From: Escherichia phage vB_EcoM_VR7
Reading direction: 5' to 3' (one strand)
Length of the DNA stretch: 64,000 nt
Sequence record: NC_014792.1
Part shown: positions 1,136 through 2,726 of the stretch, piece after piece
Layout of the letters: every line of letters starts with the position of its first letter
Numbering within the stretch: the stretch's first letter is position 1
Notes under the pieces: generated by a model
What the model saw: only the letters and a program-made list of their open reading frames with translations
What the model was told of the DNA's origin: nothing
Database searches by the model: none
Position numbers and translations under genes: made by a program

Positions 1136-1561
1136 TTATTTTTGAGCTTTGCGGAAGTTAGAAGCATAAGACTGAACAACAGTCTTTTTGATATCATGGG
1201 TAGTAACCAGGACATCAATCAGAGCGCGGCGAGCTGCATTATCATTCATATCAATTTCTGCAAATGCCTGGAAGCAAATGTCACGGGCGTTACCAGATTT
1301 GGACTGGATTTTTTCTTCTTTAACTTCTTCAATTGGGAATTCAATCATTTCAGCTTGGATTAATTCAATGATGGATTCTTTTGACTGTTTGGTGTTTACC
1401 TTCAGTTCAGAATTAAGGGACTTAGCGATGGCAACAATCTGGGTTGAAGTCAGATGGATAAGTGCATCTTCACGAATGCAGATTTCACATACTTCGTCAG
1501 CAACCATTTTGTTAGTGATGCGGGTAACAGAAAATGCAGAGGTCAGGGTCAGAAAGTTCAT
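1136..1561 (-). CDS. Hypothetical early protein (142 aa)
   Basis: ORF track 1136..1642 trimmed to the ATG at 1561 (GGAG RBS); the longer N-terminus would run through the promoter cassette at 1613-1642. Confidence 0.5.
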   Translation of the reverse strand: MNFLTLTSAFSVTRITNKMVADEVCEICIREDALIHLTSTQIVAIAKSLNSELKVNTKQSKESIIELIQAEMIEFPIEEVKEEKIQSKSGNARDICFQAFAEIDMNDNAARRALIDVLVTTHDIKKTVVQSYASNFRKAQK

Positions 1562-1612
1562 TTTATTTCTCCAAAGTTTTGTTTGATTCAGTGTGTAACT
1601 CAGTATGGAATC

Positions 1613-1642
1613 ATTATGCACCCGGTCAATCCGGATGTACAC
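1613..1642 (-). promoter_or_regulatory. T4 early-type promoter (-35 GTGTAC, -10 CATAAT)
   Basis: Minus strand GTGTAC-N18-CATAAT; same cassette family as 726-755. Confidence 0.5.
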
Positions 1643-1679
1643 TACTTTTTGAAGAAAATTTCAAATTTATTCGGGGTAT

Positions 1680-1708
1680 AAAAAAGCCCCAACCTTTCGG
1701 AAGGGGCT
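1680..1708 (-). terminator. Rho-independent terminator (minus strand)
   Basis: Minus strand AGCCCC-loop-GGGGCT followed by TTTTT. Confidence 0.6.
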
Positions 1709-1710
1709 AA

Positions 1711-1990
1711 GCCTTGCGGCAACCTTGTCGGGGTTCCACCTGCTAGGCAAGTGTTTGTACGAAACGCCGGGATTCGAACCAGGTTATTAAGTAGTTGACG
1801 CTACTAAATATTTTTAAAAGGCCATATCTCGACCATATCCGAACGTTCCGTCAAAAACGCTACTCGGCTTACGGCAAAGATATTTCCTCGAATCGTTAAT
1901 TAGGTGCGCCGTTTCAGCTGTGATATAAGGGGTCATTAACAAAACATAAAGATTTATTAATGCCGGTCCTTAAACAGGGAACATCAGTCC
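1711..1990 (-). ncRNA. Candidate small stable RNA region downstream of the tRNAs (possible counterpart of T4 species 1/2 RNAs)
   Basis: About 280 nt with no ORF between a protein gene and a terminator, in a tRNA operon; minus strand has a T-loop-like GGTTCGAATCC motif and a possible 7-bp acceptor-like pairing (CGGAACG/CGTTTCG), but no canonical cloverleaf could be folded by eye. Confidence 0.3.
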
Positions 1991-1996
1991 GACGAC

Positions 1997-2551
1997 TTAC
2001 CGGTAGCGACCCGGTTTCTTGTTTGGTATTTCAAATTGCGTAGATTTAGTATCTAATTTTTTAACTATGGAACTTATGTCATGAAAGAAAAACCATTCAC
2101 CATTTATATGGTCCTGATTATAAATGGTGTGCATATATTTTTCAAGTTCTACTGCATCCTGGGAATATCTAAATGATACTATTTTAAAACTTTTAAAAGG
2201 TGAAAATGTATTTGCTGCTATAGCTCTAACATCGGGTTCTATACTTCTTCCTATTTTATAATAATTAGGATTTGTAGTGTCTACCATTATGTATACAAAA
2301 GCTTGTCGATAACTTTTTTCTATATCGAATTCATCTTTAAATTTCAATAGATTTAGAGCAGCCGTTCTACAAAATATTCCCCATATCGACGAGCGTTTAG
2401 CTTCGGTCATCGAAAAGAATTTTTTCTTATCTATGATTTTAAGAAAAGCCACCTTTTCAATTAGTTCTTGTGTTATTTCAAAATTACCATGGTATATTAA
2501 TCCAGCTTTTATAGCCAAATTAATTTGGTCCCAGTCTACATCACTTCTCAT
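1997..2551 (-). CDS. T5orf172 / GIY-YIG-superfamily domain protein (184 aa) in the tRNA island; possible homing-endonuclease-like nuclease
   Basis: C-terminal half carries FVYIMV...NYYKIGRS...R...E...NGEWFFF, resembling the GIY-YIG/T5orf172 signature; occupies the position where T4 has segB in its tRNA cluster. Confidence 0.5.
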   Translation of the reverse strand: MRSDVDWDQINLAIKAGLIYHGNFEITQELIEKVAFLKIIDKKKFFSMTEAKRSSIWGIFCRTAALNLLKFKDEFDIEKSYRQAFVYIMVDTTNPNYYKIGRSIEPDVRAIAANTFSPFKSFKIVSFRYSQDAVELEKYMHTIYNQDHINGEWFFFHDISSIVKKLDTKSTQFEIPNKKPGRYR

Positions 2552-2570
2552 AATATTATTCTCATTAATT

Positions 2571-2647
2571 TGGTCGGGGTGAAAGGATTCTAACCTTTAA
2601 CCTGCGGTTTAGAGGACCGCTACTCTATACAATTGAGTTACACCCCG
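2571..2647 (-). tRNA. tRNA-Arg (anticodon UCU)
   Basis: Minus strand folds as a cloverleaf: acceptor CGGGGTG/CACCCCG, D-stem ACTC/GAGT, anticodon stem GCGGT/ACCGC with loop CCTCTAA (TCT), T-stem AAAGG/CCTTT, encoded 3' CCA. Confidence 0.8.
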
Positions 2648-2651
2648 TGTT

Positions 2652-2726
2652 TGGTGGCCCTTGCTGGTTTCGATCCAGCTACCTATCAGTTATGAGCTGA
2701 CAGCTCTCCCATTGAGCTAAAGGGCC
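2652..2726 (-). tRNA. tRNA with CAU anticodon (Met, or Ile if lysidine-modified)
   Basis: Minus strand cloverleaf: acceptor GGCCCTT/AAGGGCC, D-stem GCTC/GAGC, anticodon stem GTCAG/CTGAT with loop CTCATAA, T-stem GCTGG/CCAGC, encoded CCA. Confidence 0.85.

What the first reader, a model, noticed from the sequence alone, without database searches (positions are those of the whole stretch)
1711..1990. 280-nt ORF-free segment downstream of the tRNAs with tRNA-like motifs: candidate stable small RNAs
Seen in sequence: no ORF between the T5orf172 gene and the terminator at 1680-1708; the minus strand contains a T-loop-like GGTTCGAATCC and an acceptor-like 7-bp pairing, but no canonical cloverleaf could be folded by eye. 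Established knowledge: the T4 tRNA cluster ends with two stable RNAs of unknown function (species 1 and 2). Inference: counterparts may be encoded here, or non-canonical tRNAs.
Basis: inference. Interest (0 to 1): 0.45.

Follow-up and report, generated by a model that had tools for sequence, protein, structure and literature searches.

The report
T4 rnaC and rnaD stable RNAs
The ORF-free stretch after the phage tRNA genes holds this phage's copies of two small stable RNAs, "species 1" and "species 2", known in phage T4 since the 1970s; one is a heavily remodelled tRNA look-alike, and what either does is still unknown.

Summary
On the minus strand, 1903-2022 is the ortholog of T4 rnaD (species 2 RNA, 85% identical) and 1758-1896 is the ortholog of T4 rnaC (species 1 RNA, 97% identical). 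A conserved three-hairpin trailer (1709-1757) and the terminator (1680-1708) follow. Neither RNA is a tRNA: ARAGORN and Rfam find nothing there.

I compared 30 distinct rnaC sequences from at least nine T-even-like genera. They support a tRNA-derived fold:
- The 5' and 3' ends pair in an acceptor-like stem with two invariant U.U mismatches.
- A canonical T arm follows directly.
- A 10-bp hairpin carries a 6-nt loop.
- A 61-nt arm sits where the D loop would be, and its tip pairs with that 6-nt loop (UUGACG/CGUCAA; UUGGCG/CGCCAA in Klebsiella phages).

In total 89.7% of cells pair, against 49.4% or less in slid controls, and 25 of 48 pairs change on both sides.

rnaC and rnaD occur independently of each other. 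Function is unknown in the literature I could read. My best guess is that both are matured by tRNA-processing enzymes and that rnaC acts as a non-decoding tRNA mimic. The genes are already known, so interest is modest.

The parts
1903..2022 (-). rnaD ortholog (T4 species 2 RNA), about 120 nt
   Evidence: Colinear alignment to the T4 misc_RNA rnaD; 102 identical positions. The first 26 nt overlap the 3' end of ORF 1997-2551.
1999..2015 (-). rnaD hairpin H1: ACCGG / 7-nt loop GUCGCUA / CCGGU
   Evidence: 100% paired in 15 sequences, with two pairs changed on both sides. A further compensatory form, GUCGG/CCGAU, occurs in phage LTH01.
1925..1973 (-). rnaD helix UUAAGG/CCUUAU enclosing a replaceable variable hairpin
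   Evidence: RNAalifold pairs at columns 51-55/97-101 covary: G-C, A-U, U-A and other types. LTH01 has CUACG/CGUAG instead. The inner hairpin differs completely between lineages.
1903..1922 (-). rnaD conserved 3' core CACAGCUGAAACGGCGCACC
   Evidence: Nearly invariant in 15 sequences. It pairs either locally (GCUG-AAA-CGGC) or long-range with GUCGUCG at 1996-1990; the counts do not decide between the two.
1897..1902 (-). 6-nt spacer UAAUUA between rnaD and rnaC
   Evidence: Corresponds to the T4 spacer AAAUUA.
1758..1896 (-). rnaC ortholog (T4 species 1 RNA), 139 nt
   Evidence: 135/139 identical to T4 rnaC. My covariance model R1 scores it at 154 bits.
1889..1896 (-). rnaC acceptor-like stem, 5' strand (A)CGAUUCG
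   Evidence: Pairs with 1760-1766. The third pair is A-U in 12 and G-C in 18 sequences, and the two central U.U are invariant. A1896 can also pair with U1759, as in the MFE fold; this T-to-A change is shared with VR25.
1760..1766 (-). rnaC acceptor-like stem, 3' strand CGUUUCG, followed by U-A (mature end by T4 homology) and CAA
   Evidence: The 3' flank reads U-ACA-A in most sequences and U-CCA-A in the Klebsiella phages.
1824..1884 (-). rnaC long arm (P2a-d), inserted where a D loop would be
   Evidence: 17 pairs in helices 3-5, 13 of them changed on both sides. Sequence differs strongly between genera, yet total rnaC length (with the 3-nt CAA flank) stays at 141-145 nt.
1849..1854 (-). UUGACG in the apical loop of the long arm: one half of the kissing loop
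   Evidence: Exact complement of the CGUCAA loop. 6 pairs, 100% paired in 30 sequences, with A-U changed to G-C in 5 Klebsiella-phage sequences.
1785..1810 (-). rnaC 10-bp hairpin P3 with 6-nt loop CGUCAA (1800-1795)
   Evidence: 9 of 10 pairs changed on both sides and 94% of cells paired. The window has a private U.U at 1806.
1767..1783 (-). rnaC T arm: CCUGG-UUCGAAU-CCCGG
   Evidence: The third pair is U-A (15), G-C (12), A-U (1) or U.G (1) across phages. The window alone has U.C at 1781/1769.
1819..1823 (-). Nearly invariant GGCCU: CCU pairs with AGG (1888-1886) as a 3-bp D-like stem; the GG is unpaired
   Evidence: 97.8% paired but almost invariant, so covariation cannot test it. The MFE fold predicts the stem independently.
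1709..1757 (-). Conserved structured 3' trailer: hairpins at 1753-1737, 1735-1721 and 1720-1711
   Evidence: Fold has z = -2.5. The third hairpin GCC-GCAA-GGC is replaced by ACC-CUA-GGU in other phages. The trailer is kept in Dhakavirus, where rnaC is absent.
1679..1708 (-). Intrinsic terminator of the tRNA/rnaD/rnaC transcription unit
   Evidence: Hairpin plus U-run. Homologous to the T4 terminator after rnaC. PMC2330249 states that T4 transcription terminates after the species I gene.
1997..2551 (-). Context: MUG113/T5orf172-domain ORF inserted between tRNA-Arg and rnaD
   Evidence: Pfam PF13455 at 2.7e-8 and PF10544 at 8.5e-6. The ORF is absent at this position in VR25 and fPSFA.
2571..2726 (-). 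Context: tRNA-Met (2652-2726) and tRNA-Arg (2571-2647), upstream in the same orientation
   Evidence: ARAGORN and Rfam.

Best explanation
**Identity (shown).** The interval carries the orthologs of T4 rnaD (species 2 RNA; 1903-2022, minus) and rnaC (species 1 RNA; 1758-1896, minus). A structured trailer and the operon terminator follow.

**rnaC structure (shown by comparison).** rnaC is a tRNA-derived four-way-junction RNA.
- Its 5' and 3' ends form a 7-bp acceptor-like stem with two invariant U.U mismatches.
- That stem continues directly into a canonical T arm (G53, U54 U55 C56 R57 A58, C61).
- A 10-bp hairpin carries a 6-nt loop.
- A 3-bp D-like stem carries a 61-nt arm. The apical loop of this arm pairs over 6 bp with the 6-nt loop, like a built-in codon on an anticodon: GAC/GUC in most phages, GGC/GCC in Klebsiella phages.

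**Biogenesis (inferred).** Both RNAs are cut out of the tRNA-operon transcript by the host tRNA-maturation machinery. RNase P would act at the acceptor/T-arm minihelix of rnaC, and 3' trimming would finish the ends. The compact fold would explain why the RNAs are stable.

**Function (inferred, low confidence, about 0.3).** rnaC acts in trans as a non-decoding tRNA mimic. It would present only the acceptor/T-arm "elbow" face to a tRNA-binding host or phage factor, as a decoy, titrator or RNP scaffold, while its anticodon-like loop stays masked. rnaD is a separate, independently mobile structured RNA.
For: **Identity**
- T4 annotates rnaC and rnaD at the homologous place. The window aligns colinearly at 97%, 85% and 91% identity for rnaC, rnaD and trailer plus terminator.
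- RB-phage records annotate rnaC and rnaD under the same match.

**rnaC structure**
- 30 distinct sequences give 89.7% paired cells, against 35-49% for slid controls. 25 of 48 pairs change on both sides, and no shuffle of 500 reaches the observed values (first pass).
- The kissing loop is 100% paired, with one compensatory change.
- The MFE fold of the window copy independently returns the same helices, with z = -2.5.
- Length stays at 141-145 nt although the arm sequence turns over.

**tRNA relationship**
- Apart from rnaC copies, the rnaC model's weak hits are mostly ordinary tRNAs matched end to end.
- In Karamvirus, Gelderlandvirus and an unclassified Erwinia phage, rnaC sits between tRNA-Trp and tRNA-Gly. 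In Citrobacter phage Moon it sits between tRNA-Met and tRNA-Gly. Flanking spacers are only a few nt.

**Co-transcription and accumulation in T4**
- PMC2330249 describes a 1.75-kb precursor of the 8 tRNAs plus species I and II.
- PMC9697503 detected RNAC and RNAD in its transcriptome data and reports Northern-blot validation (an RNAC probe is described in its methods).

**Trans function rather than cis punctuation**
- rnaC occurs without rnaD in the Karam, Moon, Gelderland, Kanagawa and Marfa groups. rnaD occurs without rnaC in Dhakavirus.
- Unpaired nucleotides are invariant.
Against: - No experiment on this phage exists. Expression and end positions are transferred from T4.
- Function is stated as unknown in 2010, 2022 and 2025 papers.
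- That the T4 tRNA region is dispensable in laboratory hosts is my own recollection, not checked here. rnaC is missing in Dhakavirus, so any function is conditional.
- The D-like stem and most of the kissing loop are invariant. Covariation for the kissing loop therefore rests on one evolutionary event.
- The window copy carries two private stem mismatches, U.C in the T stem and U.U in P3. These could signal relaxed constraint.
- RNase P involvement is inferred from the minihelix geometry and from my memory of the 1970s-80s literature. I could not retrieve those papers.
- The fold of the rnaD core is unresolved.
Confidence: 0.8

Rival explanations
1. They are non-canonical but functional decoding tRNAs.
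For: - rnaC has a canonical T arm directly stacked on a 7-bp end-to-end stem.
- ARAGORN, and the GenBank record, call a 95-nt tRNA-Met inside the PG7 rnaC.
- Klebsiella phages encode U-CCA after the stem.
Against: - ARAGORN and Rfam tRNA-clan models give nothing on the window copy, or on three other rnaC copies and two rnaD copies, at E<=5-10.
- The PG7 call relies on the internal CGGAACG pairing, which breaks to A.C in related phages.
- The only anticodon-like loop has 6 nt and is fully paired with the long arm. Its GUC changes to GCC together with its partner, so pairing is conserved, not codon identity.
- All 14 tRNAs called at the PG7 locus encode NCCA (for one of them I inferred this from the ARAGORN coordinates), whereas rnaC ends GUACAA.
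Confidence: 0.03
2. They are purely cis-acting processing or stability elements of the tRNA operon. They would serve as tRNA-like punctuation and a 3' protective structure, and the released RNAs would be by-products with no role in trans.
For: - They sit at the 3' end of the operon, just upstream of the terminator, in T4-type phages.
- A tRNA-like minihelix would direct RNase P to make the rnaD 3' end.
- rnaC is cleanly absent in Dhakavirus.
Against: - In four or more other genera rnaC lies between two ordinary tRNAs, where no punctuation is needed.
- Strict length conservation, an invariant loop-loop pairing and invariant unpaired nucleotides across genera exceed what a cleavage signal needs.
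- rnaD-like elements have spread to Vequintavirinae phages as a self-contained unit next to a tRNA.
Confidence: 0.15
3. They are base-pairing regulatory sRNAs that target host or phage mRNAs.
For: - PMC9697503 refers to them as small regulatory RNAs.
- rnaC has a conserved A/U-rich single-stranded linker, UUUUAAAAAU.
- A convergent SNP in rnaD arose in a T4-like phage evolved on host ECOR34 (PMC12685909).
Against: - The most conserved loop sequences of rnaC are engaged with each other, not free.
- Neither mature RNA would end in its own terminator U-tail, which is the usual Hfq-binding feature.
- No T4 trans-acting sRNA had been functionally characterised as of the 2010 review PMC3014915.
- blastn found no similarity, on either strand, in 5,426 E. 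coli genomes. That search would miss short seed matches.
Confidence: 0.07
4. The interval encodes small proteins, as many GenBank records annotate.
For: - A 42-aa ORF (1814-1942, minus) exists.
- Many records place 'hypothetical protein' CDSs under the match.
Against: - No frame is open in all 31 rnaC homologs, and their lengths differ by 1-2 nt.
- Substitutions are compensatory across helices.
- The ORF spans the rnaD/rnaC boundary.
Confidence: 0.01

Closest known systems
Bacteriophage T4 rnaC (species 1 RNA; NC_000866 70908-71046)
   Same: Direct ortholog. 135/139 identical and the same length. It holds the same place between rnaD and the trailer/terminator and shares all helices.
   Different: There are four substitutions. 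U1 to A is shared with VR25 and can add an A-U pair to the end stem. One falls in an internal loop. Two are private G-to-U changes that create U.C in the T stem and U.U in P3.
Bacteriophage T4 rnaD (species 2 RNA; NC_000866 71053-71171)
   Same: Ortholog. The 5' core (AGAAACCGGGUCGCUACCGGUAAGUCGUCGGACUGAUG) and the 3' core (ACAGC-N-GAAACGGCGCACC, one variable position) match T4, and the position upstream of rnaC is the same.
   Different: - Overall identity is 85%, because the middle hairpin is of the RB51/VR5 type rather than the T4 type.
- In T4, rnaD starts 2 nt after tRNA-Arg. Here a 555-nt MUG113/T5orf172 ORF lies between them and overlaps the first 26 nt of rnaD.
Canonical tRNA (Rfam RF00005)
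   Same: - rnaC shares an end-to-end 7-bp stem continuous with a 5-bp T stem.
- It shares a 7-nt T loop with U54 U55 C56 R57 A58 and G53-C61.
- It shares a four-way junction and its location inside tRNA clusters.
   Different: - There is no 7-nt anticodon loop and no D arm.
- A 61-nt arm is inserted, the hairpin has 10 bp, and the acceptor stem has two U.U.
- Most lineages encode no CCA.
- ARAGORN and RF00005 do not detect it.
tRNA-like domains of tmRNA and of bacterial Y-RNA-like YrlA (RF02553)
   Same: These are non-decoding RNAs that keep an acceptor/T-arm module, and so engage tRNA-processing and tRNA-modifying enzymes. This rests on established knowledge of those families, my recollection.
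   Different: - rnaC has no tag reading frame.
- ARAGORN makes no tmRNA call, and Rfam gives no tmRNA or YrlA match on rnaC.
- As I recall it, the tRNA-like module of YrlA sits within a longer RNA whose own ends form a separate stem; rnaC's ends form the acceptor-like stem directly.
T-box Stem I specifier-anticodon pairing (analogy only)
   Same: An RNA arm runs alongside a tRNA-shaped body and pairs with its anticodon loop through a codon-like triplet. Here that is GAC/GUC or GGC/GCC within a 6-bp loop-loop helix.
   Different: The pairing is intramolecular. There is no riboswitch context and no sequence similarity. This is a resemblance in geometry, not membership.

Membership tests
T4 rnaC (species 1 RNA) family | Sequence homology to the T4 rnaC gene over its full length | tested here: met
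   135/139 identical with no indels; 154 bits with family model R1.
T4 rnaC (species 1 RNA) family | Location inside or at the end of the phage tRNA gene cluster, on the same strand | tested here: met
   It lies downstream of tRNA-Met and tRNA-Arg on the minus strand and upstream of the terminator. The arrangement matches T4.
T4 rnaC (species 1 RNA) family | Shared secondary structure supported by covariation | tested here: met
   89.7% of cells paired and 25 pairs changed on both sides. The window copy keeps all helices apart from two single mismatches.
T4 rnaC (species 1 RNA) family | Accumulates as a stable RNA of about 140 nt in infected cells | not testable with these tools
   Known for T4 only: GenBank note 'small, stable RNA' and Northern validation in PMC9697503.
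T4 rnaD (species 2 RNA) family | Sequence homology to the T4 rnaD gene, located immediately upstream of rnaC | tested here: met
   Colinear alignment with 102 identical positions; the conserved 5' and 3' cores match T4.
T4 rnaD (species 2 RNA) family | Accumulates as a stable RNA of about 120 nt | not testable with these tools
   T4 annotation only.
tRNA (RF00005 / ARAGORN cloverleaf) | Cloverleaf with D arm, 5-bp anticodon stem and 7-nt anticodon loop, detectable by tRNA models | tested here: not met
   No ARAGORN or Rfam tRNA-clan hit in 1700-2022, even at E<=10. None on other rnaC or rnaD copies. The loop has 6 nt and is paired.
tRNA (RF00005 / ARAGORN cloverleaf) | Acceptor stem plus T arm forming a 12-bp coaxial minihelix with a canonical T loop | tested here: met
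   rnaC only: 7 + 5 pairs with no intervening nucleotide, and a UUCGAAU loop. rnaD has no T arm.
tRNA (RF00005 / ARAGORN cloverleaf) | 3'-terminal NCCA, encoded or added, and aminoacylation | tested here: inconclusive
   The encoded flank is U-ACA-A here and U-CCA-A in Klebsiella phages. The T4 annotation ends the RNA at ...GUA. Post-transcriptional addition cannot be tested.
tmRNA | tRNA-like domain plus a tag-peptide reading frame | tested here: not met
   ARAGORN reports no tmRNA. There is no Rfam tmRNA match on the element.
YrlA / bacterial Y RNA-like (RF02553) | Match to the family covariance model | tested here: not met
   No match on rnaC or rnaD. The only weak YrlA hit (24.6 bits against a gathering score of 69) overlaps two ordinary tRNAs, Gly and Pro, in L147.

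The most novel reading that the evidence does not exclude
rnaC is a "self-plugged" tRNA mimic. It would be a tRNA-derived RNA whose D-loop insertion folds back and occupies its own anticodon-like loop through a codon-anticodon-like 6-bp kiss. Only the acceptor/T-arm elbow would stay exposed. rnaC would then act as a decoy or titrator for a host factor that reads that face of tRNAs, for example an acceptor-stem-directed defence toxin or a processing or modification enzyme. rnaD would be a second, horizontally mobile RNA that influences host range, as the convergent rnaD SNP on host ECOR34 hints (PMC12685909).
Probability: 0.15. Interest if true: 0.7.

Novelty: already known. Interest (0 to 1): 0.3.

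Why it matters
The genes themselves are not new. Species 1 and 2 RNAs have been part of the T4 map for about fifty years, and T4 and RB-phage records annotate them. Their function, however, is one of the oldest open questions about T4 non-coding RNA.

The comparison made here adds several points:
- rnaC is conserved well beyond T4, in Karamvirus, Moonvirus, Gelderlandvirus, Kanagawavirus, Marfavirus and others, and has a defined tRNA-derived fold.
- That fold contains a covarying loop-loop pairing that can be tested by mutation.
- rnaC and rnaD are independent modules.
- No Rfam 15 family matched either RNA, and many genome records mis-annotate the region as hypothetical proteins or as a 95-nt tRNA-Met.

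This gives concrete handles for experiments and for fixing annotation.

Tried and rejected
- **tRNA and RNA-family detection.** ARAGORN and Rfam, at gathering threshold and at E<=10, found nothing in the interval beyond one chance-level sub-threshold hit. The same held for other rnaC and rnaD copies.
- **Internal acceptor pairing.** CGGAACG/CGUUUCG looks perfect in this window but becomes A.C in Moon and Karam phages. I rejected it in favour of the end-to-end stem.
- **PG7 95-nt tRNA-Met.** This call depends on that same internal pairing. It is not reproduced in sister phages (AS6, Moon), so I treat it as an artefact.
- **Loose IMG/VR pattern.** TTCGAGGA-N(95-125)-GGTTCGARTCC returned about 90 mostly chance loci. 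The rnaC model found no convincing new relative among them. L054, L061 and L031 are weak hits and look like ordinary or tandem tRNAs.
- **Metagenome scan.** It added only 2 new variants, so the family appears narrow.
- **E. coli genomes.** No match.
- **rnaD closing helix.** My first idea, GAUG/CAUC, is broken in AnYang, VR5 and CUA3. My first register for the UAAGG helix was off by one.
- **rnaD core fold.** Local hairpins and a long-range stem score about the same, so this stays undecided.
- **Parent tRNA.** A search among PG7 tRNAs was uninformative.
- **Literature.** Searches for a function or a published structure found only statements that the function is unknown. The Miller 2003 T4 genome review is not held in the library, and keyword searches retrieved none of the 1970s-80s processing papers.
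Full report
**What is in the window**

The first 6 kb of the window are closest to Gaprivervirus-type T-even phages (VR26, VR20, VR25, SP18). All genes here read on the minus strand.

In that orientation the order is:
- tRNA-Met (2652-2726) and tRNA-Arg (2571-2647)
- a 184-aa ORF (1997-2551) with MUG113/T5orf172 domains
- the interval under study
- a hairpin plus U-run terminator at about 1708-1679

**Checking the observation**

- GGTTCGAATCC is on the minus strand at 1780-1770.
- Only trivial ORFs of 42 and 34 aa fall in the interval.
- ARAGORN finds no tRNA. Rfam finds nothing at gathering threshold, and at E<=10 only one chance-level non-tRNA hit at the 3' edge.

The description is accurate.

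**Identity**

A blastn search of the interval hits 836 phage records, 678 of them over at least 80% of the query. Some RB-phage records label the features under the match as rnaC and rnaD.

The T4 reference record annotates misc_RNA rnaD ("species 2 RNA") and rnaC ("species 1 RNA") directly after tRNA-Arg. The window aligns to them colinearly:

| Element | Window coordinates (minus strand) | Identity to T4 |
|---|---|---|
| rnaD | 1903-2022 | 102 identical positions of 119-120 (85%) |
| spacer | 1897-1902 | not scored |
| rnaC | 1758-1896 | 135/139 (97%) |
| trailer + terminator | 1680-1757 | 72/79 (91%) |

**Structure of rnaC**

Homologs extend beyond T4-type phages. I found them in:
- Moonvirus (Citrobacter phage Moon, NM4.3)
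- Karamvirus (PG7, AS6, KaAlpha, myPSH1140)
- Gelderlandvirus (Melville, Proteus phage ABTNLPp2)
- Kanagawavirus (Kosakonia phage 305, PEi20, IME523)
- Marfavirus-type Klebsiella phages
- Mosigvirus (RB69, p000v)

Across these, rnaC with its 3-nt CAA flank stays at 141-145 nt, although the central part is rewritten.

The alignment yields the following model, numbered as in T4 (window coordinate = 1897 - n):
- **P1:** nt 2-8 pair with 131-137.
- **D-like stem:** nt 9-11 pair with 76-78 (3 bp).
- **Long arm, P2a-d:** nt 13-73.
- **P3:** nt 87-96 pair with 103-112 (10 bp), closing a 6-nt loop at 97-102.
- **T arm:** nt 114-118 pair with 126-130.
- **Loop-loop helix:** nt 43-48 (UUGACG) pair with 97-102 (CGUCAA).

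I counted pairs on 30 distinct sequences (first pass on 21 sequences):
- 89.7% of cells form standard pairs, against 35-49% when partners are slid by 1-3 columns.
- 25 of 48 pairs show changes on both sides.
- None of 500 shuffles reaches the observed values.

Individual features:
- P1 keeps A-U in the T4 group and G-C elsewhere at its third pair. It has two U.U mismatches in every sequence.
- The third pair of the T stem is G-C, U-A, A-U or U.G.
- 9 of 10 P3 pairs covary.
- The loop-loop helix is paired in every sequence. It switches from A-U to G-C in the five Klebsiella-phage sequences, which is a single evolutionary event.
- The T loop follows the tRNA consensus (UUCRANU, flanked by G53-C61).
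- The T stem runs into P1 without a gap. This gives the 12-bp minihelix typical of tRNAs.

The MFE fold of the window copy alone returns the same helices, including the 3-bp D-like stem and an extra A1896-U1759 pair (z = -2.5).

The alternative internal acceptor pairing (CGGAACG) is not conserved. It also explains the spurious 95-nt tRNA-Met called in PG7.

A covariance model built from the alignment scores the window copy at 154 bits. Beyond rnaC copies, its weak hits are mostly ordinary tRNAs matched end to end. This fits a tRNA origin.

No reading frame is conserved.

**The window copy in particular**

It differs from T4 at four positions.
- The first nucleotide is A instead of U. VR25 shares this change, and it allows an eighth pair in the end stem.
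- Two G-to-U changes are private to the window. One creates U.C in the T stem (1781/1769). The other creates U.U in P3 (1806).

I cannot tell whether the private changes are drift, tolerated variation or sequencing error.

**rnaD**

Fifteen sequences were compared, plus a shorter form in phage LTH01.

Supported features:
- Hairpin H1 (ACCGG / loop GUCGCUA / CCGGU; window 2015-1999) has compensatory pairs.
- A UAAGG/CCUUA helix encloses a freely replaceable hairpin.

The nearly invariant cores are GUCGUCGGACUGAUGUUCCCUG and CACAGC-N-GAAACGGCGCACC. They can fold either as two local hairpins or as a 7-bp long-range stem. The counts do not decide between these. The single-sequence fold is not exceptional (z = -1.4). 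rnaD has no T arm.

**Distribution and context**

rnaC and rnaD are separable.
- Dhakavirus phages (VR5, AnYang, CUA3) join rnaD directly to the trailer, with rnaC absent.
- The Karam, Moon, Gelderland, Kanagawa and Marfa groups have rnaC but no rnaD.
- In Karamvirus, Gelderlandvirus and an unclassified Erwinia phage, rnaC lies between tRNA-Trp and tRNA-Gly. In Moon it lies between tRNA-Met and tRNA-Gly.
- rnaD-like elements also sit right after a tRNA in two Vequintavirinae phages.

Searches elsewhere:
- blastn found nothing similar in 5,426 E. coli genomes.
- IMG/VR and metagenome scans added few variants.
- Rfam 15 matched neither RNA.

**What is known**

- PMC2330249, citing Broida and Abelson, describes a 1.75-kb T4 primary transcript. 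It is the precursor of eight tRNAs plus species I and II, and it ends after species I.
- PMC9697503 classifies RNAC and RNAD as late-accumulating and reports Northern validation.
- PMC3014915 (2010) and PMC12685909 (2025) state that the roles are unknown.
- PMC12685909 also reports a convergent SNP in rnaD when a T4-like phage was evolved on host ECOR34.
- That species 1 was sequenced in 1975, and that RNase P, RNase E and a dimeric species 2-species 1 precursor were studied, is my recollection. I could not retrieve those papers.

**How it most likely works**

*Shown:* orthology, the rnaC fold, and the independence of the two modules.

*Inferred:*
- Both RNAs are excised from the tRNA-operon transcript by host tRNA-processing enzymes. 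rnaC offers a textbook RNase P minihelix, and its compact, pseudoknotted fold would explain its stability.
- rnaC does not decode. Its loop has 6 nt, the loop is occupied, and its triplet changes together with its partner. Most lineages encode no CCA, while neighbouring true tRNAs do.
- My best functional guess (about 0.3) is a tRNA mimic that exposes only the acceptor/T-arm face to some tRNA-binding factor.
- A purely cis role as punctuation is less likely (about 0.15), because rnaC is conserved between ordinary tRNAs in other genera.

**Verdict**

The finding is real and correctly interpreted, but it concerns genes that are already known and annotated in T4. The structural model and the distribution may be useful additions. 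They do not change the classification.

Noticed in passing
window 1997-2551 (-): A MUG113/T5orf172-domain ORF (184 aa) lies between tRNA-Arg and rnaD. Close relatives VR25 and fPSFA join these two directly. The ORF's last codons and stop codon lie inside rnaD hairpin H1. An ORF of the same length sits downstream of the terminator in phage RZ (L129 1234-1788). It looks like a mobile cassette.
   Followed up: partly
window 2117-2145 (-): A near-consensus sigma-70-type promoter (TTGAAA-17-TATAAT, 11 of 12 matches) lies inside the inserted ORF and points towards rnaD and rnaC. It could drive them independently of the tRNA promoter.
   Followed up: no
L008 about 1499-1620 (phage A5-4); L122 about 500-600 (phage LTH01): rnaD-like elements sit immediately 3' of tRNA-Tyr and tRNA-Met in two Vequintavirinae phages. 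This places them outside the T-even family and suggests horizontal transfer of rnaD as a unit attached to a tRNA 3' end.
   Followed up: partly
L124 (VR5), L121 (AnYang), L125 (CUA3): Dhakavirus phages keep rnaD, the structured trailer and the terminator, but lack the 139-nt rnaC and its spacer.
   Followed up: yes
L004 1554-1648 (Enterobacter phage PG7): The GenBank record and ARAGORN call a 95-nt tRNA-Met that is really the 3' two-thirds of rnaC. Many other records place 'hypothetical protein' CDSs over rnaC and rnaD.
   Followed up: yes
window 1709-1757 (-): The trailer between rnaC and the terminator is itself conserved and folds into three hairpins. The third shows a compensatory replacement (GCC-GCAA-GGC against ACC-CUA-GGU) and is deleted in phage RZ. 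Its role is unknown; it could be a processing site or a further small RNA.
   Followed up: partly
window about 707-733, 1078-1104 and 1596-1620 (+ strand coordinates): A repeat of about 30 nt (GTAACTCAGTATGG[AG]AT[CA]ATTAT on the + strand) recurs in the leaders of three consecutive minus-strand genes, next to promoter-like hexamers. A sub-threshold Rfam 'freshwater-2' match covers 1559-1656 (-).
   Followed up: no
window 1781/1769 and 1806: The window's rnaC has two private G-to-T changes that put a U.C mismatch in the T stem and a U.U mismatch in the 10-bp hairpin. None of the other 29 distinct sequences compared has either change.
   Followed up: partly
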